Positions 2,419 through 54,406 of a stretch of DNA of 64,000 nucleotides are shown in pieces (the first letter of the stretch is position 1; every line of letters starts with the position of its first letter). The DNA comes from Minisyncoccota bacterium. GTDB lineage: Bacteria; Patescibacteriota; Minisyncoccia; Minisyncoccales; Minisyncoccaceae. The stretch lies in the NCBI GenBank assembly GCA_028704295.1, contig JAQVLF010000001.1, positions 2,537-66,536 on the forward strand, given 5' to 3'. A program made the translations under genes and the position numbers. The notes below the pieces were generated by a model that was given only the letters and a program-made list of their open reading frames with translations, was not told the origin of the DNA and searched no databases.

Positions 2419-3456
2419 TCATAATTTTAAATTCATAATATTAATATCTTCACTCCTCACCTCTTTTTGCAATTGTTTTTCTCTTTCAATAATTGGAAAA
2501 TATTTCCTTGCTAAAAAAGGCTCTACGGAATTTAAATAATTACACCACCCCTCTAACCAAATTAAATAAGTATGTAATGGTTTCGATGTTTGATAAAAAT
2601 TCGAAGAATATTCATCTTCTCCCAATTTATCTAAAAAATAAAAATGCATTCTTAATAACTTTTTAATTTTCTTAGGAATTCTTGGCATCTCGTGATCAGA
2701 AACAGACAAACCAGTTACTATTTGACTTCTTCCCCTTTTCATGAATTTTGTTTTATTGTCATTCAAAACAAATCCATTTTTTCTTATTATACTACAAATA
2801 AAACCTAAATCTATATTATCGTTTGATGAAAATGTCATATCGTCCCCATAACGAGTATATGTATATATTTTTTCTTTTGAATGTTTAGAAAGTTCTTTAT
2901 CGATATTCATAAAAACCATATTTGATAAAATAGGGCTAGTATAAAAACCTTGAGGAAGAAAGTTTTCTATTGTTGATATTTTTGCCAATCCAGAAGCTAT
3001 GTCTTCATTCGCCCCTAACATTAAAAATACTTCTTTTACCTGATTAATTTTTATTGATTCAAAAAAATTCTTAACGTCTAAATTAATTACTATTTTTTTT
3101 CCGATATGATTCAATGCATTTGTTCTTATTCCCTTTCCTTTTACAAATCCATGGACACATTCTAATGGATTATAGTTATTCTCTAAAAATTTTCGTATAC
3201 TTTGCAAAGCAGTTTTAGAGCCTTGATTTATAGTTTCATATATCTTCCTTTTTTTTCCTTTTTTTGTATACAAATAAAAATATGCAAAATCTACAAAAGG
3301 ATTATCTTTATTCTCATCATCCAACGACTTTTTTTCCACGCAAACCTTCTCTTCTTTTAATAAATGATCTAGATACTTTAATGAAATACCCAAAAATTCT
3401 GCTAACTGGTCATTGTTTTTTAACCCTTTTATTTCTTTTAAATTTTGCATAGGCAA
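2419..3456 (-). CDS. retron-type reverse transcriptase
   Basis: The RT motifs are readable: NALNH followed by VINLDVKNFFESI, then LPQGFYTSPILSN, then YTRYGDDMTFSS (the YxDD box), then RSQIVTGLSV (the VTG motif characteristic of retron RTs). The 345-aa length is typical of retron RTs. The track start at 3456 is a TTG, and the first ATG is at 3450. Confidence 0.85.
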   Translation of the reverse strand: MPMQNLKEIKGLKNNDQLAEFLGISLKYLDHLLKEEKVCVEKKSLDDENKDNPFVDFAYFYLYTKKGKKRKIYETINQGSKTALQSIRKFLENNYNPLECVHGFVKGKGIRTNALNHIGKKIVINLDVKNFFESIKINQVKEVFLMLGANEDIASGLAKISTIENFLPQGFYTSPILSNMVFMNIDKELSKHSKEKIYTYTRYGDDMTFSSNDNIDLGFICSIIRKNGFVLNDNKTKFMKRGRSQIVTGLSVSDHEMPRIPKKIKKLLRMHFYFLDKLGEDEYSSNFYQTSKPLHTYLIWLEGWCNYLNSVEPFLARKYFPIIEREKQLQKEVRSEDINIMNLKL

Positions 3457-3475
3457 TAAAATACGAACATATTTT

Positions 3476-3552
3476 AATCCTTGGTAAGGATACGAATTAT
3501 GGTTAATATAGCTAACGAGTACGAACTCATACTCTCTAAATTACCAAGGATT
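3476..3552 (-). ncRNA. candidate RT-associated structured RNA element: a 12-bp perfect inverted repeat enclosing 53 nt
   Basis: aatccttggtaa (3476..3487) is the exact reverse complement of ttaccaaggatt (3541..3552). An inner hairpin gagt-acga-actc lies at 3517..3528. The element fills the gap between the DUF3800-like ORF and the RT start, and no U-run follows it on the minus strand. Confidence 0.35.
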
Positions 3553-4252
3553 AAAAAATAATCGAATTATTATCCTCCCCTATCATTAATTCATTTTTAC
3601 TATTATAATAAATTCCCTTATCTATATCATATATCATTCCAATCTTAGATTTAATTAATTTGTAATTTAAAACCCTACAAGGCTTAATCTTCACTCTATA
3701 TGCTTTTAAAAATATATGATTAACATAGTCAGTAATGGCCAATAATTTCTCTTTCTTCTTACAAATATTAACATTAAAATTAATTGTTTTTCCAATTTTT
3801 TTTGATACTCTTACCAACTCTTCCTTAAATACCTTTTTAGATATACTATTTTTAAAAATTCCATTTTCTTCAAAAAAAATACTAATATTATTATTTTTAT
3901 GTTGTAAAAATAAATTCTTAAAAAGTGCTCCTACCATCTTAATATAAATTTTTTCCTTGTCTTCTATAGTATTTTTACTAACCTTAATAAAAACCAAATA
4001 AGACCTGAAGGGTGCTTCTCTTAATAAACGGACAAATTCAGAATAAATATCTGGGTGATCCTCTGAGGCATGGAAACCTTTAAAATTTGGATTATTAAAT
4101 TGAAGTTTATTCCTTATATAATTCTCCTTGTTGATAATTTCTAATCTAAGGCTTTTAACATCTTGCACTATCGAGCAACCTAAAACAAAAATTTCACAAT
4201 TACTATCCACACTCAAACTTCCTCCTTCGTCAACGTAAAAACTTATCTCCAT
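3551..4252 (-). CDS. DUF3800-like protein
   Basis: The N-terminus FYVDEGGSLS...IFVLGCSIV resembles the yiDESG start of DUF3800. It also has a mid-protein FHASE and a C-terminal LLAITDYVNHIF, which resembles the qlADxva motif. It lies immediately upstream of the RT on the same strand. Confidence 0.55.
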   Translation of the reverse strand: MEISFYVDEGGSLSVDSNCEIFVLGCSIVQDVKSLRLEIINKENYIRNKLQFNNPNFKGFHASEDHPDIYSEFVRLLREAPFRSYLVFIKVSKNTIEDKEKIYIKMVGALFKNLFLQHKNNNISIFFEENGIFKNSISKKVFKEELVRVSKKIGKTINFNVNICKKKEKLLAITDYVNHIFLKAYRVKIKPCRVLNYKLIKSKIGMIYDIDKGIYYNSKNELMIGEDNNSIIF

Positions 4253-4425: not shown

Positions 4426-4499
4426 TGGCTGTGGGACTAGGATTCGAACCTAGATTAATGGGACCAAAACCCATCGTCCTACCGTTAGACGATCCCACA
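4426..4499 (-). tRNA. tRNA-Gln (anticodon UUG) with encoded CCA
   Basis: The reverse complement reads TGTGGGA TC GTCT AACGGTA GGAC G ATGGG TTTTGGT CCCAT TAAT CTAGG TTCGAAT CCTAG TCCCACA G CCA. It folds as a full cloverleaf with a TTCGAAT T-loop, and the anticodon loop TT-TTG-GT gives UUG. Confidence 0.9.
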
Positions 4500-25317: not shown

Positions 25318-26203
25318 TTAATTTTGACTTAAAGATTCTATTCTCTGATTATATTCTTCTTTAGAAATTCCTCCTTTAGCTAAAAGAGAATTTAATCCTG
25401 CGATATAATTTTGTTTTATTTGAGCATCTGACAATGCTTTCTTGTACAATCTAATCTCGTCTAAAAATCCATTCAAATTTTCCCCAGATGTTCCATTTCT
25501 TCCTAACGTCAAAGCGTAATCATTACTTGTATTAGAAGGAGCATTTGTTACGTTTTTAACTAAGGCGCCATTTCTATAAATACTTAAAATGCTATTTTTT
25601 TGCATATAGACAATATGCACCCATTCATTTATCTTTGGTACGCCGTAACAATCTTCTACTTGACTTTTACCAAATTGAAATCCTCCACCCGAGCAAGTCT
25701 CGAAACTAGCATCAAAATGAATACCTAAAGTTGAACTGGAACTTGCTAAACCTTTTACAAAGACCCCCCTATTACTAGAGATATCTTTTAATTTCACCCA
25801 TAATTCGACTGTATAATTATCCAAAATATTATCTAAAGAACTTGAATCCGAAACTTGAACATAAGAATCATTATCATTTTCTATACATTTTCCTTTTACG
25901 CAATCATTCCCTCCTCTTACGTAAACATTCCCTGAGCGAGAACCATTATTTAGACCATAATTATCTTCAAGATCTGTAGATGACGCTAAACTTCCAGTAG
26001 CGCCCCCCCCCTTCGTCAAACGTCCACTCAGAAACTGAATTCAAAAGCATTGAGTTTTGCACGTTTGAAGAAAAAGCTTTAGCGCGAGCAAATGTTGCAT
26101 TAGAAACAGAAGAAGAAACGGTTACCATGATGACTCCTGCTATAACTCCAATGATAACAATAACTACAAGTAATTCAATTAATGTAAAAGATTTGTTTTT
26201 CAT
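25318..26203 (-). pseudogene. type IV pilin-like protein with a LamG/concanavalin-like lectin domain, split by a frameshift at a G9 tract
   Basis: The N-terminal ORF (25967..26203) has the prepilin motif KSFTLIELLVVIVIIGVIAG. The second ORF (25318..26019) carries LamG-like blocks (YTVELWVKL, LNGFLDEIRLY). The two frames meet at C9 on the plus strand (26003..26011). Removing one G joins ...WTFDEGGG to ATGSLASS.... Confidence 0.7.
26003..26011 (-). repeat. homopolymeric G9 tract (C9 on the plus strand) inside the pilin-LamG coding sequence
   Basis: Read directly: cg-ccccccccc-ttcg. This is striking in such an AT-rich genome. Confidence 0.9.
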
Positions 26204-45803: not shown

Positions 45804-46835
45804 TTATACCAACTTAATCTTTTGATAAATTATTAAAAATAAAATAAAACATATCTTTGTAAAAATGCTTTTCTTTAAAAAATAGGATTGTGTTTTTCTT
45901 GCATAGGCCCTCCATGTATTAAAGGCTTCTTTAAACGTTCTCTTCTTAATCTTCTTTATCATTTTCAAAACTGTCTTCTTTCTCGGCAAAGTATATTTTT
46001 CAAAAATGACGTATCCTAAAAAGTCTATTCCATTTAAAACAGGAAAAATGCTTGTTGCTTTTTCTTTATACTTTAAGTCTAGCTTACAATTTAAAAATAT
46101 CTCTAATTTGTCTTTGGTTCTCCTTAACTCTTTTTTCTCTTTTTTGAAAATCACAAAATCATCCATGTACCTAAAAAAACATTTAGACTTTAAACCTCTT
46201 TTAACGAATTGATCCATTTCATTTAAATAGATATTGGCAAACAATTGAGAAGTTAAGTTTCCAATAGGAATTCCTTTTTCATTGCTTTTAATAATTGTAT
46301 CAATTAAATTCAAGGCCTTTTTATCTTTAACTTTTCGTTTGATTATTTTAAATAACAAGCTGTTGCTTATGCTGTCGAAATACTTCGAAATATCTGCCTT
46401 GAAGCAAAAAAAATCACCTTTGTTTTTTAATTTTCTCTTAAAATCATTGACTGCCCTATGATTTCCTTTTCCTTTTCTGCAGGCATATGAATAATGATAG
46501 AAAGTATTGTCAAAAATTGGAGTAATGAAATTGCATAAAGCATGATGGACTAATCTATCTTTAACCTGAGGAGCTTTTATCTCTCTTTTTTTAGAATCCC
46601 TTACAATAAACTTTTTATAGCCTCCGTGAATATATGTTTCTTCTTTTAAATCTTTTTGAATTTTAAATAAGTTTTCTTCCAAATTAAAAGAGAACTCTAA
46701 TATTTCTCTTTTATATCTTTTATTCTTTCTAACTTTTAAATATGAATGATGTAAATTGTTAAAAGAATGAATTTGACTATAAAAATTGCCTTTTCTCTTC
46801 ATAAAATTTAAATTTAAACAAATTAAAAGGCCCAT
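45804..46835 (-). CDS. DGR reverse transcriptase
   Basis: IGNLTSQLFANIYLNEMD is the DGR-specific [I/L]GxxxSQ motif, and YMDDFVIF is the catalytic box. The protein is about 330 aa. The probable start is MKRKGNF at 46802. Confidence 0.9.
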   Translation of the reverse strand: MGLLICLNLNFMKRKGNFYSQIHSFNNLHHSYLKVRKNKRYKREILEFSFNLEENLFKIQKDLKEETYIHGGYKKFIVRDSKKREIKAPQVKDRLVHHALCNFITPIFDNTFYHYSYACRKGKGNHRAVNDFKRKLKNKGDFFCFKADISKYFDSISNSLLFKIIKRKVKDKKALNLIDTIIKSNEKGIPIGNLTSQLFANIYLNEMDQFVKRGLKSKCFFRYMDDFVIFKKEKKELRRTKDKLEIFLNCKLDLKYKEKATSIFPVLNGIDFLGYVIFEKYTLPRKKTVLKMIKKIKKRTFKEAFNTWRAYARKTQSYFLKKSIFTKICFILFLIIYQKIKLV

Positions 46836-46998: not shown

Positions 46999-47114
46999 TA
47001 CCGGGCACACCGAAACCCAATGTTGTTGTTCCGATTCTCGGGCGAATTGTTCAGATTCAAAGCAAACACCCCGGCGTTGGAAGTGTTGTTCCAATTCCCG
47101 CCGCGTAGAAACGC
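46999..47114 (-). repeat. DGR template repeat (TR)
   Basis: This 116-nt stretch matches VR 47589..47704 at 106/116 positions. In the target frame it encodes AFLRGGNWNNTSNAGVFALNLNNSPENRNNNIGFRCAR, rich in AAC/AAT codons. It lies between avd and the RT. Confidence 0.9.
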
Positions 47115-47150: not shown

Positions 47151-47495
47151 CTAGATTAATACTTGTTGGAAGCCTCCCAAAAGCCGTCCTAATTCAACAA
47201 CTTTCTCTTCGAGACTCTCATATTTCTTCATATTAATGAAGGTAAAATCTTTTGAAAGCCTGATGAAAATTTTTAATTTTTGAAGTTCTATATCTAATTT
47301 TTTAAAATAATTTGGCGTTGCTTTTCCTAAATTTATCACAATTACTAATTCTAAAATTGTGATCAATGTATTTTCTATTTTTTGACCTAATATGAATCTC
47401 TGATTTTTCGGAAATTTTGCAATCGCCGGATGGATTTCTAGAATCAAGTCATATGTCTTTTGAAATAATATTAATTTCTCATGATTCATATTCAA
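47151..47495 (-). CDS. avd: DGR accessory variability determinant (Avd, four-helix-bundle protein)
   Basis: 114 aa with LFQKTYDLILEIHPAIAKFPKNQRFILGQKIENT, typical of the four-helix-bundle / 23S-IVS protein family used by DGRs. Its position between target and TR also fits. Confidence 0.8.
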   Translation of the reverse strand: MNMNHEKLILFQKTYDLILEIHPAIAKFPKNQRFILGQKIENTLITILELVIVINLGKATPNYFKKLDIELQKLKIFIRLSKDFTFINMKKYESLEEKVVELGRLLGGFQQVLI

Positions 47496-47544
47496 TTTTT
47501 AAAAATCAGTTTTATCTTAATGCTTTTTTCCTTTAAAATGCGGG

Positions 47545-47567
47545 GCATTTTTCTAAAAGAAAAATGC
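47545..47567 (-). promoter_or_regulatory. 9-bp hairpin 20 nt downstream of the VR and the target stop codon
   Basis: gcatttttc (47545..47553) pairs with gaaaaatgc (47559..47567) around the loop taaaa. It may be a terminator or the VR-flanking hairpin reported to aid DGR homing. Confidence 0.4.
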
Positions 47568-47587
47568 ACTTTCAGATTATCAGACGA

Positions 47588-48796
47588 TTACCGGGCACAC
47601 CGAAACCCAACGTTGTAGTTCCGATTCTCGGGCGAAGTGTCCAGAATCAAAGCAAACACCCCGGCGTAGGAAGTGTAGTCCCAATACCCGCCGCGTCGAA
47701 ACGCGTGAGTTGGAGAACAGTCTGTTCCTGTGCTAGAACAATACGCATTATTATTATCAGTATAAATTTGTCCAACTCTATTTACAGATGTTAAAGCTCT
47801 ATTTGCTGGTCCAACTTCCGAATAGGGCAGATTGCTTGTATAGTTTATCGCATTAAATTCTCTCCAAGTACTCGAATAATTAGGAAGCTCACTTGTTTGC
47901 TTTGTCTCATCTACCCACTCCCACATATTTCCTGACAAATCCCATATTTCTTCTCCATTTGAAAGAATTAATTTAGCTTTTTCATTTCTTGATGTTCCAT
48001 AATCTGGATCTAAGGCTGAGTTATATGCTCCCGAAGTATCCTCTCCTGTATTCCCTGTCTTAAGATAGCCAACCCCTTTTCCACCTATCCAATTTGAATC
48101 CACATCTGCTATATCCCTTGCAAGCGCCATCCATTCCGCGTTAGTCATTAGATGAGCTCCTATGTTTTGACAAGCTTCTTTTGCTTCATCTTGAGTTACA
48201 TATCTCCATGGAATTCCATCTGCTTGAGAAACAGCCGTATGAGAAGATGTCGAACATCCTGTGGCTGGACAAGTGATTATGCTTGAACCGCTTTTGGCTT
48301 TTGCTTCATACTGCATTATGCACCTATTTCCAAAAGGTATCCAGCCTGATTCGCAAGATGTTTTAATGTCTTGTGTCTTCATATACCTTGATTCTTGGAT
48401 TAGATAACCTTTGTTTCCAGGGGCAGGTGTTCTTATGGAATAGTTTTGTCCATCCGAAAAGTATAGGAGACAATTGTTTGTTCCTGTTATTGTTTGATTT
48501 CCTGCTGTTAATCCATCATAGCTTGGATTAGATGGTACTGTTTGTAATCCATAATATGAGAGAAAGTTTGAATTGTTATTATTATCTTCTAAACAGAGAT
48601 TGCCTTGATGGTAGGTTCCATAAGTTTCTAAGGCAGTGCCTAGGCTGGATAATTGTGCAACCATCTTAGTGTTTTGGGATGTTGCTACAAAAGAAGAAAC
48701 TCCTATTGTGATTAAGCCTGCTATAACTCCGATGATGACAATTACTACAAGAAGCTCGATCAAGGTGAAGGATTCATTTTTTTTATAATTTGACAT
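47588..48796 (-). CDS. DGR target: type IV pilin-like N-terminus fused to an FGE-sulfatase / C-type-lectin-fold domain
   Basis: The N-terminus ESFTLIELLVVIVIIGVIAG is the prepilin cleavage/methylation motif. LSGNMWEWV and the C-terminus RGGYW...GFRCAR are hallmarks of the FGE/CLec fold used by DGR variable proteins. Confidence 0.85.
   Translation of the reverse strand: MSNYKKNESFTLIELLVVIVIIGVIAGLITIGVSSFVATSQNTKMVAQLSSLGTALETYGTYHQGNLCLEDNNNNSNFLSYYGLQTVPSNPSYDGLTAGNQTITGTNNCLLYFSDGQNYSIRTPAPGNKGYLIQESRYMKTQDIKTSCESGWIPFGNRCIMQYEAKAKSGSSIITCPATGCSTSSHTAVSQADGIPWRYVTQDEAKEACQNIGAHLMTNAEWMALARDIADVDSNWIGGKGVGYLKTGNTGEDTSGAYNSALDPDYGTSRNEKAKLILSNGEEIWDLSGNMWEWVDETKQTSELPNYSSTWREFNAINYTSNLPYSEVGPANRALTSVNRVGQIYTDNNNAYCSSTGTDCSPTHAFRRGGYWDYTSYAGVFALILDTSPENRNYNVGFRCAR
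47589..47704 (-). repeat. DGR variable repeat (VR) at the 3' end of the target gene
   Basis: It differs from the TR at 9 positions that are all A in the TR on the coding strand (plus-strand coordinates 47611, 47617, 47637, 47641, 47646, 47668, 47677, 47680, 47686), plus one non-A difference at 47697. Confidence 0.9.
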
Positions 48797-50376: not shown

Positions 50377-50649
50377 TTAAAAAATTTCCGAATGTGAACC
50401 GATTCTTAAAAGTAATATAATAGACTCTTCTTTTTTAATTTTATAAATTAAAAGTACATCTGGCTTTATATGACATTCGAAACATCCCTTAAATTCTCCT
50501 GATAAGCTATGATTAGAATTTTTAAAGGGCAATCGTCCTCCATCAGTTAAAATATTCAAAATTGTCTCTAACTCTTTAATAATATTACTATTATATTCGT
50601 AATGCTTTAAGTTTTTTTTGAATTTATTAGAATATTTTATTTTAAGCAT
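50377..50649 (-). CDS. yafQ: type II toxin, YafQ/RelE family mRNA interferase
   Basis: HSLSGEFKGCFECHIKPDVLLIY matches the YafQ H.L.G....ECHI.PD.LLIY signature. Confidence 0.8.
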   Translation of the reverse strand: MLKIKYSNKFKKNLKHYEYNSNIIKELETILNILTDGGRLPFKNSNHSLSGEFKGCFECHIKPDVLLIYKIKKEESIILLLRIGSHSEIF

Positions 50650-50650
50650 G

Positions 50651-50932
50651 TCAGTCTTTTAAAACATCACGAATAAGGTCTGCTCCATTTGTAAAAGATT
50701 TTTCGCTATTTTCTGCCTCTATAATTGCTTCACGTAAAATTTCGGCATTGCGTAAAGTCATACCATTACTGTCTCTTAATTCACAAGGAAAACTTTTTGT
50801 ATTTATTACTTGTCTAAAAAAGATTTTAATAGCGGAACTCATATCCATTCCCAAATTCTCTAAAATTTTCTTTGCTTCTTTTTTTGTTTTAGAATCTATA
50901 CGAATTTGAATTTGTGTATTTTTATTAGTCAT
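50651..50932 (-). CDS. dinJ: type II antitoxin, DinJ/RelB family
   Basis: From the internal Met: MTNKNTQIQIRIDSKTKKEAKKILENLGMDMSSAIKIF is the ribbon-helix-helix DinJ pattern. There is a 1-nt gap to the toxin gene. Confidence 0.7.
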   Translation of the reverse strand: MTNKNTQIQIRIDSKTKKEAKKILENLGMDMSSAIKIFFRQVINTKSFPCELRDSNGMTLRNAEILREAIIEAENSEKSFTNGADLIRDVLKD

Positions 50933-51054
50933 ATTTATATTGTATTGAATTTGTATGCATTTGTCAATATATTTTCTTTTACTACTTATTTTGATGAAAT
51001 CCATAATCACGTAAGTATTGTCAAACAATGATTTAAAAGATATTATATTTATAT

Positions 51055-53731: not shown

Positions 53732-54406
53732 CTAGCGAACGCAACGAAACCAACTAAATGTATTATGGTCGAGTTGGTTGCCGTGAAAGTAGATGGAGCT
53801 GTTAACCTCCTGCCTAGAAAAACTGTTGCAAGATGCGCCATTTAGTACAGTAATACTCCATTGACTTCCTCCAGGAGTACTTGTAAACTCCCATCTAGCA
53901 TCTAAAGAATTATTAAATGATGTCATTCCATTGCCATTTGGTCCGCCTAAAGCTGTGCAAGCAGCTTGAATTTCCTCTGTTGTTGGAATTCTTGCTCCAA
54001 TATCTGCGCATTGTCTTAATGCTTGAGCATATGGCCATTCACCTGTGTCAAATCCTCCAGCAAATCTTGGATAAGCATCAATGTGAAGAGTTTTGCCATT
54101 ATAAACAAACTCCAACCCCCCGCCCTCTTTGCATAAATTAGCATAGTTATCAGGGCATGAATAGCCTGTTCCAGTTTGTGCGAGTAATTCACTTGAATCA
54201 TAATTATCCAATAAATCAGCATTTAGATTCTTTATTTTCCCTTTATCTTTATGCACTTCTTGCTCAACTGAAGAAGTATTTAAAGGAGCTGTGTATTCGC
54301 TTGGCATTGAACCAGATGGCTCAGACCAAGAAAATGCTGAATAAGATATTCCAATAGCAAATATTGCTACTAAAAACATAACAAGTATTTTATTTTTTTT
54401 ATCCAT
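53732..54406 (-). CDS. secreted DUF1566/C-type-lectin-fold-like protein
   Basis: A signal/TM anchor, then CADIGARIPTTEEIQAAC, with the C-terminus FSWFRCVR typical of DUF1566/CLec-fold proteins. Confidence 0.55.
   Translation of the reverse strand: MDKKNKILVMFLVAIFAIGISYSAFSWSEPSGSMPSEYTAPLNTSSVEQEVHKDKGKIKNLNADLLDNYDSSELLAQTGTGYSCPDNYANLCKEGGGLEFVYNGKTLHIDAYPRFAGGFDTGEWPYAQALRQCADIGARIPTTEEIQAACTALGGPNGNGMTSFNNSLDARWEFTSTPGGSQWSITVLNGASCNSFSRQEVNSSIYFHGNQLDHNTFSWFRCVR

What the first reader, a model, noticed from the sequence alone, without database searches (positions are those of the whole stretch)
47588..48796. The DGR diversifies a type IV pilin-like protein (a pilin N-terminus with an FGE/C-type-lectin ligand-binding tip)
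The target begins MSNYKKNESFTLIELLVVIVIIGVIAG, the prepilin cleavage/methylation motif with a conserved Glu at +5. It ends in an FGE-sulfatase/CLec-fold domain (GNMWEWV ... RGGYW ... GFRCAR) whose last 38 codons are the VR. A hypervariable ligand-binding domain would therefore be displayed on a pilus-like fibre. For a reduced-genome organism that probably lives attached to other cells, a pilus tip adhesin that can be re-targeted is an attractive host- or surface-recognition device. Whether this exact fusion has already been described I cannot establish from the sequence.
Basis: partly seen in the sequence, partly recalled or inferred. Interest (0 to 1): 0.7.

Follow-up and report, generated by a model that had tools for sequence, protein, structure and literature searches.

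The report
DGR-diversified type IV pilin adhesin
A tiny-genome (CPR/Paceibacteria) bacterium points its mutagenic retroelement at the sugar/ligand-binding head of a protein built like a type IV pilus subunit, so the cell could keep re-tuning what its pilus-type surface protein sticks to; the architecture recurs in many related genomes and varies in nature, but has not been explicitly described.

Summary
ORF 47588-48796 (minus strand, 402 aa) has a prepilin-type N-terminus (Pfam N_methyl above cut-off) and a C-terminal FGE/C-type-lectin domain. Its last 38 codons are the VR of a complete DGR (target-Avd-TR-RT): 116 nt, 10 mismatches, 9 at TR adenines.

An AlphaFold model (pLDDT 88) shows a 47-residue alpha1 helix, a small beta-sheet head and a CLec domain. 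Its best PDB matches are DGR variable proteins (TaqVP, Mtd, TvpA).

The architecture is a large Patescibacteria family. At least nine further species genomes have a pilin-headed target next to Avd-RT with adenine-biased TR/VR pairs. In seven of ten near-identical protein clusters, differences pile up at discrete VR positions, so these pilins are being diversified in nature. Static paralogues coexist.

Caveats:
- The window has no pilus assembly genes.
- The cleavage-site residue is Ser, not the canonical Gly/Ala, although this is lineage-wide.
- Glu5 is retained, which argues against the capping tip subunit.
- Fold search of the pilin module alone was not significant.
- VR surface exposure was not computed.

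The searchable literature lists the domain pair only in catalogues. DGR-diversified type V pilus adhesins are the closest precedent. Verdict: real, a new variant of a known kind.

The parts
47588..48796 (-). DGR target gene: 402-aa modular type IV pilin-like protein (pilin module + CLec/FGE-fold module). Present in NCBI as 'SUMF1/EgtB/PvdO family nonheme iron enzyme [Candidatus Pacebacteria bacterium]'.
   Evidence: ORF. Pfam N_methyl + FGE-sulfatase above cut-offs. 100% identical database entry P0001. AF2 model pLDDT 88.2, pTM 0.88.
48770..48796 (-). [quoted passage not shown] The predicted cleavage site is after Ser9, which is non-canonical (Gly/Ala is usual).
   Evidence: Sequence. In alignment A1, position -1 is S in 52, A in 13 and G in 1 of 66 sequences; F+1 and E+5 are invariant. 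Position -1 co-varies with the other pilins of the same genome.
48623..48769 (-). alpha1 helix of the pilin module (residues 10-58), including hydrophobic alpha1N with Phe1 and Glu5 of the mature protein.
   Evidence: DSSP helix 12-58 in the full model and 12-57 in the module-only model. Profile matches to geopilin, GspG, PilA and PilE N-termini, E 1e-12 to 1e-5.
48356..48622 (-). Predicted pilin head (residues 59-147): four short beta-strands, with conserved Cys68 and Cys109.
   Evidence: AF2 strands 65-68, 111-114, 119-124, 131-135. C68 and C109 are invariant in A2. Foldseek's top two hits are full-length pilins 3sok and 1oqw, but E is 0.4-0.6. A head-only profile finds no pilin in the PDB.
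47591..48355 (-). C-type-lectin / FGE-fold ligand-binding module (residues 148-402).
   Evidence: Pfam FGE-sulfatase. Foldseek top hits are TaqVP 5vf4 (E 1e-8), FGEs, Mtd 1yu0-4 and TvpA 2y3c. There is no Cys or His between RGG (368-370) and GFRC (397-400), where FGE has its catalytic cysteines.
47589..47704 (-). Variable region (VR): codons 365-402. 15 codons correspond to adenine-bearing TR codons, 11 of them AAY.
   Evidence: Adenine-templated columns have 2.91 bits of entropy across the family, against 0.85 for the other VR columns.
47521..47568 (-). Stem-loop about 20 nt downstream of the VR/stop codon. It could be a terminator or a DGR target-site hairpin; the role is undecided.
   Evidence: DNA fold -12.2 kcal/mol, z = -3.55, 0 of 200 shuffles as stable.
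47151..47495 (-). avd, the DGR accessory variability determinant (114 aa).
   Evidence: Pfam bAvd 67.3 bits. NCBIfam DivGenRetAVD 91.5 bits against a cut-off of 80.
46999..47114 (-). Template repeat (TR): 116 nt, 27 adenines, 53% GC in a 30% GC genome.
45804..46835 (-). DGR reverse transcriptase (ORF of 343 aa; the conserved start is probably Met12 at 46802).
   Evidence: Pfam RVT_1 66 bits. IGNLTSQ at 191 and YMDD at 223. Alignment A4 with 14 related DGR RTs, M12 invariant.
25318..26203 (-). Context: a second modular pilin gene (N_methyl-type N-terminus MKNKSFTLIELLVVIVIIGVIAG + Laminin_G_3 lectin module). It is interrupted by a frameshift at a G9 tract (26003-26011).

Best explanation
The locus is a complete diversity-generating retroelement. 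Its single target in this window is a modular type IV pilin: a pilin module (class III signal peptide, long alpha1 helix, small beta-sheet head) fused to a C-type-lectin/FGE-fold ligand-binding module.

Shown here:
- The cassette (target-Avd-TR-RT).
- The adenine-specific TR/VR differences.
- The domain architecture and its conservation.
- Its recurrence next to DGRs in other Patescibacteria.
- VR-focused variation among near-identical relatives in public data.

Inferred from established DGR biology (Bordetella phage Mtd, Treponema TvpA, Thermus TaqVP):
- RT with Avd copies TR RNA into cDNA, misincorporating at adenines.
- The cDNA replaces the VR.
- This rewrites about 14 residues (371, 373-375, 377, 384, 386, 387, 390, 391, 393-396) in the CLec binding site while leaving the scaffold intact. 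The theoretical repertoire is about 5e14 proteins.

Inferred from type IV filament biology:
- The prepilin is inserted through Sec.
- Its 9-residue leader is removed by a prepilin peptidase, here after Ser.
- The alpha1N helix lets the subunit be extracted from the membrane and polymerised into a type IV filament, which displays the variable lectin head outside the cell.

The likely use is adhesion to host-cell or other surface ligands that change, in an organism of a lineage that lives attached to other cells. Whether the subunit sits at the tip or along the fibre is open. Retention of Glu5 argues against it being the capping subunit.
For: DGR parts and adenine bias. 11 AAY codons in the TR.

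Pilin N-terminus:
- Pfam N_methyl and NCBIfam TIGR02532 are above cut-off.
- F+1 and E+5 are invariant in 66 homologues.
- The profile matches solved pilins.
- AF2 gives helix 12-58 plus a 4-strand sheet.

CLec module: Foldseek's best hits are the DGR variable proteins TaqVP, Mtd and TvpA.

Family:
- 207 homologues at E<1e-5, most with N_methyl + FGE-sulfatase.
- 1,905 50%-identity representatives at E<=1e-30, with about 45 of the best 150 covering the full pilin+CLec profile.

Recurrence with DGRs: pilin-headed targets lie next to Avd-RT with adenine-biased TR/VR in L001, L019, L023, L027, L035, L044, L048, L071 and L080.

Natural diversification: in 7 of 10 clusters at >=90% identity the variable columns concentrate in the last 40 residues. 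Cluster P0068 has 15/40 against 1/354 (Fisher p=1e-15), and P0019 has 13/40 against 7/386. Three clusters are static.

Pilus context:
- A second lectin-type modular pilin with the same N-terminus is in the window.
- A T2SSE ATPase gene lies within about 6 kb of family members in L004, L045 (cultivated Minisyncoccus archaeiphilus, where it is directly adjacent) and L051.
- Other pilins lie next to family members in many loci.
- The literature says nearly all of this phylum carry the core T4P genes and use them for host attachment (PMC13293708).
Against: - None of the 60 window ORFs of >=90 aa is a recognisable pilus assembly gene (no T2SSE, T2SSF, Peptidase_A24 or PilMNO). About 48 ORFs were scanned with Pfam and the rest were judged from their N-terminal sequences. 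The other contigs of the MAG could not be examined.
- The residue before the predicted cleavage site is Ser, whereas the T4F review states that leaders invariably end in Gly or Ala (PMC10191384).
- Foldseek on the pilin module alone is not significant, and the head region without alpha1N finds no pilin by sequence.
- There is no population data for this exact locus. Its protein cluster has one member, so current activity here rests only on an intact cassette and 9 A-site differences.
- In an RT-centred metagenome sample, 0 of 22 complete targets were pilin-headed, so this is a lineage-restricted solution and not a general one.
Confidence: 0.65

Rival explanations
1. Membrane-anchored receptor, not a fibre subunit. 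The pilin-like N-terminus serves only as a signal-anchor. The protein stays in the cytoplasmic membrane as a bitopic surface protein with the DGR-variable lectin head outside, and is never polymerised.
For: Ser at -1 departs from the canonical Gly/Ala cleavage site. There is no assembly machinery in the window. The pilin head fold is not significant by Foldseek or sequence. Most cellular DGR targets are described as membrane-anchored binders (PMC8144416).
Against: F+1 and E+5 are invariant across 66 homologues, which a mere anchor would not require. Ser(-1) is shared by the other pilins of the same genomes (9 S/S pairs), pointing to a lineage-specific peptidase site. The conserved ~90-residue head with an invariant Cys pair follows the helix as in pilins. 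T2SSE and other pilin genes lie beside family members.
Confidence: 0.2
2. Evasion rather than retargeting. The pilin is a receptor exploited by phages or by host defences, and the DGR varies its exposed head to escape recognition, not to acquire new ligands.
For: Roux et al. raise this possibility for cellular DGR targets (PMC8144416). Type IV pili are common phage receptors (established knowledge).
Against: The variable residues sit in the CLec site that is a ligand-binding surface in Mtd, TvpA and TaqVP. The AAY-codon design maximises chemical diversity, as in binding proteins. Static paralogues with the same fold coexist, which fits a set of fixed adhesins plus one tunable adhesin.
Confidence: 0.1
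3. The protein is an enzyme of the SUMF1/EgtB/PvdO family, as its NCBI name says, with an N-terminal membrane anchor.
For: The Pfam FGE-sulfatase hit and the database name. FGE enzymes appear among the Foldseek hits.
Against: The segment that carries the two catalytic cysteines in FGE is replaced here by VR-encoded hypervariable residues, with no Cys or His between residues 368 and 400. The best structural matches are non-enzymatic DGR variable proteins. The segment is the target of adenine mutagenesis, which is incompatible with a fixed active site.
Confidence: 0.02
4. Relic DGR. The cassette is no longer active, and the TR/VR differences are historical.
For: There is no population data for this locus. 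One non-adenine mismatch (T->G) is present. In a relative, the RT is frameshifted in two of three assemblies and the target is identical in all copies found.
Against: RT, Avd, TR and VR are all intact, with the catalytic and DGR-specific RT motifs present. 9 of 10 mismatches are at adenines. The closest DGR relatives show VR variation among samples (cluster P0003, which contains the L013 target whose RT is 76% identical).
Confidence: 0.15

Closest known systems
DGR-diversified type V pilus tip adhesins of Bacteroides (BfrT, BthT, BunT; bioRxiv 10.1101/2024.11.15.621889)
   Same: A DGR with Avd rewrites a C-terminal CLec-fold head carried on a pilus-subunit N-terminal domain. The idea is a tunable adhesin on a fibre.
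   Different: The filament class and assembly route differ: type V pili use a lipoprotein signal and strand exchange, whereas here there is a class III signal peptide and an alpha1 helix. The phylum and ecology differ: gut Bacteroides against CPR/Paceibacteria. That paper does not mention type IV pilins.
Modular type IV pilins (Streptococcus sanguinis PilB with a vWA module, PilC with a lectin module; Raynaud et al. 2021, PMC8179133)
   Same: A small pilin module has a functional binding module grafted on. CPR examples are prominent. The architecture IPR012902-IPR005532 (pilin motif + FGE/SUMF domain) is in their Dataset S1 with 8 proteins.
   Different: No hypermutation is involved, the FGE/CLec module is not discussed there, and no DGR link is made. 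Here the grafted module is the substrate of a retroelement.
DGR variable proteins with a CLec fold: Mtd (Bordetella phage BPP-1), TvpA (Treponema denticola), TaqVP (Thermus aquaticus)
   Same: Same fold by Foldseek (5vf4 E 1e-8; 1yu0-4; 2y3c), a C-terminal VR, AAY-rich TR, and Avd + RT.
   Different: Those proteins are a phage tail-fibre tip, a lipoprotein and a soluble/prophage protein. None has a prepilin N-terminus.
CPR (DGR clade 2) targets as described by Roux et al. 2021 (PMC8144416)
   Same: Patescibacterial, cellular DGRs with CLec-type targets.
   Different: That survey states that CPR targets typically have no recognisable transmembrane or other conserved domain. In the target-centred genome sample here, 9-11 of about 20 DGR-linked relatives of this CLec family are pilin-headed.

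Membership tests
Diversity-generating retroelement (DGR) | Reverse transcriptase of the DGR type ([LIV]GxxxSQ motif, YxDD) | tested here: met
   RVT_1 66 bits. IGNLTSQ at 191 and YMDD at 223. 44-56% identity to 14 RTs of TR/VR-bearing loci.
Diversity-generating retroelement (DGR) | TR/VR near-repeat with mismatches at TR adenines, and the VR at the 3' end of an ORF | tested here: met
   116 nt, 10 mismatches, 9 at adenines. The VR is the last 38 codons.
Diversity-generating retroelement (DGR) | Accessory protein Avd | tested here: met
   NCBIfam DivGenRetAVD 91.5 bits against a cut-off of 80. Pfam bAvd.
Diversity-generating retroelement (DGR) | Ongoing mutagenic retrohoming at this locus | not testable with these tools
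   No reads and no near-identical copies are available (the cluster has one member). Relatives show VR-focused variation.
Type IV pilin (class III signal peptide, IPR012902) | N-terminal methylation/cleavage motif recognised by curated HMMs | tested here: met
   Pfam N_methyl 29.1 bits against 21.2. TIGR02532 20.9 bits against 16.3.
Type IV pilin (class III signal peptide, IPR012902) | Leader peptide ending in Gly or Ala (PMC10191384) | tested here: not met
   Ser9 precedes Phe10. In A1, position -1 is S in 52, A in 13 and G in 1. Ser is shared by the neighbouring pilins of the same genomes, so it is probably a lineage-specific variant of the site.
Type IV pilin (class III signal peptide, IPR012902) | Hydrophobic alpha1N of 20-25 residues with Glu at +5, within a long alpha1 helix | tested here: met
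   E14 (= +5) and F10 (= +1) are invariant. AF2 helix 12-58.
Type IV pilin (class III signal peptide, IPR012902) | Globular head with an antiparallel beta-sheet packed on alpha1C ('lollipop') | tested here: inconclusive
   AF2 predicts 4 strands after the helix. Foldseek's top two hits are full-length pilins, but E is 0.4-0.6. The head-only profile finds nothing in the PDB. There is a weak T2SSG hit in one DGR-linked relative only.
Type IV pilin (class III signal peptide, IPR012902) | Processing by a prepilin peptidase and polymerisation by a T4F machinery encoded in the same genome | not testable with these tools
   None is present in the 64-kb window, and the rest of the MAG is unreachable. 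The literature says the core T4P genes are near-universal in the phylum.
DGR variable protein, C-type-lectin fold | CLec/FGE-like fold with the VR forming the C-terminal part of the domain | tested here: met
   Foldseek hits to TaqVP, Mtd and TvpA. Pfam FGE-sulfatase. VR = residues 365-402.
DGR variable protein, C-type-lectin fold | Variable residues clustered on a solvent-exposed binding face | not tested
Only the secondary-structure pattern is known (loop 370-378, strand 379-387, loop 388-395).
FGE / SUMF1 / EgtB / PvdO enzymes (current database name) | Catalytic residues (the FGE Cys pair in the C-terminal segment) | tested here: not met
   There is no Cys or His between residues 368 and 400, and that segment is hypervariable and adenine-templated. 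The position of the FGE cysteines is from established knowledge of human FGE, not re-derived here.
Modular pilins (Raynaud et al. 2021) | [quoted passage not shown] | tested here: met
   N_methyl + FGE-sulfatase. The same pair is listed as IPR012902-IPR005532 in their Dataset S1.

The most novel reading that the evidence does not exclude
Episymbiotic CPR bacteria, and possibly DPANN archaea, use DGR-hypermutated type IV pilin subunits as programmable host-recognition adhesins. One tunable lectin-pilin sits beside several fixed lectin-pilins. Simple-repeat frameshift switches may act on the RT and on alternative pilins to turn diversification and adhesin choice on and off. Host range in these lineages would then be set and re-set by a retroelement acting on the pilus.
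Probability: 0.3. Interest if true: 0.8.

Novelty: new variant of a known kind. Interest (0 to 1): 0.6.

Why it matters
DGRs are unusually abundant in CPR bacteria, but what their targets do has stayed vague. A major survey states that CPR targets usually show no recognisable membrane or other domain.

Type IV pili are the one surface structure shown experimentally to mediate host attachment in cultivated Patescibacteria. Linking the two gives a concrete, testable mechanism for how reduced-genome episymbionts could change or broaden the partners they bind.

It also corrects a misleading enzyme annotation carried by hundreds of database entries.

It extends the recent finding of DGR-tuned type V pilus adhesins in gut Bacteroides to a second, unrelated filament class. 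That suggests convergent use of 'variable head on a fibre'.

Family members occur in the cultivated Minisyncoccus archaeiphilus next to a pilus ATPase gene, which offers an experimental entry point.

Tried and rejected
- Looking up the window's own protein in the contig index found nothing on record, so the rest of the MAG and its pilus genes could not be examined.
- Paul et al. 2017 (Nat Microbiol), the key CPR DGR paper, is not held by DOI or PMC id. I cannot exclude that it mentions pilin-type targets.
- Foldseek on the 150-residue pilin module ranked pilins first, but with E 0.4-0.6. It is not usable as proof.
- A profile of residues 30-147 (head without alpha1N) against the PDB found no pilin hit.
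- A single-sequence search of the CLec module against the PDB gave no residue-level alignment of the VR to a solved variable protein.
- RT-centred metagenome sampling aimed to estimate the share of pilin-headed targets. The corrected pass gave 0 of 22. However, the RTs were mostly 37-48% identical and from mixed lineages, and the closest contigs were too short. This shows only that the feature is lineage-restricted.
- A search for further VRs in the window found none.
- ORF 53732-54406, which looks CLec-like by eye, was tested as a second target. It has no TR match, no Pfam/NCBIfam hit, and no meaningful hhalign match to the family.
- The enzyme reading (the NCBI name) was rejected for lack of catalytic residues.
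- A T2SS pseudopilin reading (some NCBI names in the family) was considered unlikely, since CPR cells are thought to lack an outer membrane. This rests on general knowledge and was not tested.
Full report
**1.

- The ORF at 47588..48796 is on the minus strand and encodes 402 aa. It starts MSNYKKNESFTLIELLVVIVIIGVIAG and ends ...RRGGYWDYTSYAGVFALILDTSPENRNYNVGFRCAR.
- Pfam reports N_methyl (residues 5-29, 29.1 bits, cut-off 21.2) and FGE-sulfatase (residues 183-304, 33.7 bits, cut-off 23.3). NCBIfam's prepilin domain model TIGR02532 also passes.
- Downstream on the same strand lie avd (47151-47495; DivGenRetAVD 91.5 bits against a cut-off of 80), a 116-nt TR (46999-47114) and an RT (45804-46835; RVT_1, IGNLTSQ, YMDD).
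- TR and VR (47589-47704) differ at 10 positions: 9 at TR adenines and one T->G.
- The VR is exactly codons 365-402. The TR has 27 adenines and 11 AAY codons. 15 codons are adenine-bearing, giving about 5e14 possible proteins.
- No other VR exists in the window.
- The window is 30% GC, whereas TR and VR are 53-57% GC.

**2. What the protein is**

- A family alignment of 66 full-length homologues (A1) gave an AlphaFold model with pLDDT 88.2 and pTM 0.88. It shows helix 12-58, four short strands between residues 65 and 135, then a large domain from about residue 150.
- Foldseek against the PDB puts DGR variable proteins first: TaqVP 5vf4 at E 1e-8, then FGE enzymes, Mtd and TvpA.
- The profile also matches solved type IV pilins and pseudopilins through its N-terminus: geopilin 1e-12, GspG 2e-8, PilA 3e-8.
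- F+1 and E+5 are invariant in all 66 sequences.
- The protein has ten cysteines, several of them invariant. This fits an extracytoplasmic protein.
- The stretch where FGE carries its catalytic cysteines is the hypervariable, adenine-templated segment here, and it has no Cys or His. The database name 'SUMF1/EgtB/PvdO family nonheme iron enzyme' is therefore misleading.

**3. Weak points of the pilin call**

- Modelled alone, the first 150 residues keep the same topology (pLDDT 74.5). Foldseek then ranks two full-length pilins first, but only at E 0.4-0.6.
- With alpha1N removed, the head finds no pilin by sequence.
- The residue before the predicted cleavage site is Ser. A current review says leaders invariably end in Gly or Ala (PMC10191384).
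- Against this being a defect: in A1 position -1 is S in 52, A in 13 and G in 1, and it co-varies with the other pilin genes of the same genome (9 S/S pairs and 11 G/G pairs). It therefore looks like a lineage-specific form of the site.
- The same review notes that the subunit capping the tip complex lacks Glu5. This protein keeps it, so 'tip' is not established and the very cap is unlikely.
- Scanning the ORFs with Pfam, plus a T2SSE tblastn, found no pilus assembly gene in the window. The rest of the MAG was unreachable.

**4. Context that supports a pilus role**

- The window holds a second modular pilin with a nearly identical N-terminus and a Laminin_G_3 lectin module.
- In relatives, family members sit beside other pilin genes.
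- A T2SSE ATPase gene lies close by in L004, L051 and the cultivated Minisyncoccus archaeiphilus PMX.108. In Minisyncoccus the two genes are divergent and adjacent.
- The literature states that nearly all members of this phylum carry the core T4P genes and that pili mediate host attachment in cultivated strains (PMC13293708).

**5. Generality**

- The protein search found 207 homologues at E<1e-5, mostly with both Pfam domains.
- The exhaustive profile search found 1,905 50%-identity representatives at E<=1e-30. About 45 of the best 150 cover the whole pilin+CLec profile. The same CLec module also occurs, often repeated, in giant proteins.
- In GTDB species representatives, more than 537 stretches encode relatives.
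- Of the 80 loci kept, about 45 are pilin-headed.
- Pilin-headed targets directly followed by Avd-TR-RT with adenine-dominated TR/VR mismatches occur in L019, L023, L027, L035, L044, L048, L071 and L080, and in L001, which was found through protein P0086.
- L013, whose RT is 76% identical to the window's, is cut at its 5' end but belongs to the pilin-headed cluster P0003. L020's N-terminus is masked, but its body is homologous to the pilin-headed clade.
- Eight other DGR-linked relatives carry long non-pilin N-terminal regions instead. Their RT identities to the window's RT overlap those of the pilin-headed loci, which suggests that display domains have been exchanged on one CLec/DGR cassette.
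- An RT-centred metagenome sample found no pilin-headed target among 22 complete targets. It was dominated by distant RTs. The feature is therefore lineage-restricted.

**6. Evidence of diversification in nature**

- Ten clusters of pilin-headed relatives at >=90% identity were expanded.
- In seven of them the variable columns concentrate at discrete positions in the last 40 residues. P0068 has 15/40 against 1/354 (p=1e-15), P0019 has 13/40 against 7/386, and P0065 has 18/40 against 16/396.
- Three clusters (P0038, P0031, P0043) have fixed C-termini.
- Members of one variable and two static clusters are each reported on a longest contig of the same length (202,438 bp), apparently the same contig. 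A genome can therefore carry one tunable lectin-pilin alongside several fixed ones.
- Across the family, adenine-templated columns are the most variable: 2.91 bits, against 0.85 for the other VR columns and 1.75 for the rest of the CLec domain.

**7. Comparison with what is known**

- DGRs in CPR and CLec-fold variable proteins are known.
- Modular pilins are known and common in CPR. Raynaud et al. list IPR012902-IPR005532 for 8 proteins in a supplementary table, without comment.
- A 2024 DGR survey mentions a 'GspG-type pilin' domain among scarce VR-holding domains (PMC11661182).
- Roux et al. state that CPR targets typically have no recognisable transmembrane or other domain.
- Searches combining DGR terms with pilin, prepilin, pseudopilin or T4P terms found no explicit description.
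- Paul et al. 2017 could not be read.
- I therefore rate this a new variant of a known kind: a known diversification system and a known display principle, joined on a filament class for which the link has not been described.

**8. Verdict**

- The architectural interpretation is supported.
- Fibre display, tip location and host retargeting are reasonable but untested.
- Confidence in the overall model is 0.65 and interest is 0.6.

Noticed in passing
window 25318-26203 (-), G9 tract at 26003-26011: A second modular pilin (N_methyl-type N-terminus + Laminin_G_3 lectin module) is split by a frameshift exactly at a G9 homopolymer. That tract is the only G/C run of 7 or more in the whole 30%-GC window. 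It is either a slipped-strand phase-variation switch (as in Neisseria pilC) or a sequencing/assembly error.
   Followed up: partly
L001 ~12630 vs L002 ~12630 and L003 ~4869 (DGR RT of the P0086 locus); also L025 4413 and L035 2973: The RT of a pilin-targeting DGR is intact in one assembly and frameshifted in two others. The only difference is (AG)8 against (AG)7 inside the RT ORF. G10 and G8 tracts lie inside the RT ORFs of two other CPR DGRs. This may be simple-repeat on/off switching of diversification. Three of about 21 distinct RTs carry such tracts, and the window's RT has none.
   Followed up: partly
window 2419-4252 (-), next to tRNA-Gln at 4426-4499: A second reverse transcriptase (PADLOC RT_VII-A2, 274 bits) sits with an adjacent DUF3800_VII protein (102 bits). 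Together they form a type VII-A2 retron-like defence module in a CPR genome. It is flanked by three ORFs with no family hit.
   Followed up: partly
L060 9617-10963 (DPANN archaeon, DGR-linked); L054 and L059: Archaeal relatives of the CLec module start with KAITPIVATILLVVVAV-type N-termini that resemble archaeal class III (type IV pilin) signal peptides. Pfam Pilin_N scores only 17.2 bits against a cut-off of 25.2. L060 has Avd-RT and an adenine-biased TR/VR pair, so archaea may use the same display idea.
   Followed up: partly
window 53732-54406 (-): A 224-aa ORF has an N-terminal hydrophobic segment and a C-terminus FSWFRCVR that looks CLec/DUF1566-like by eye. It has no Pfam or NCBIfam hit, no TR match and no meaningful profile match to the target family. 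Its function is unknown.
   Followed up: partly
window 47521-47568 (-): A stable stem-loop lies about 20 nt after the target's stop codon (z = -3.55 against shuffles). It could be a terminator or the hairpin that some DGRs need next to the VR. This is undecided.
   Followed up: partly
window 50377-51028 (-): A YafQ/ParE-type toxin with a RelB antitoxin pair lies about 1.6 kb from the DGR target.
   Followed up: no
L013 2194-3186: The RT closest to the window's (76% identity) has one in-frame stop codon in that assembly.
   Followed up: no
clusters P0019, P0083, P0003 (members P0123, P0169, P0171, P0172, P0197): Several database members of the variable clusters end in frameshifted or truncated sequence right inside the VR. 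This is probably assembly breakage caused by population heterogeneity at the VR.
   Followed up: no
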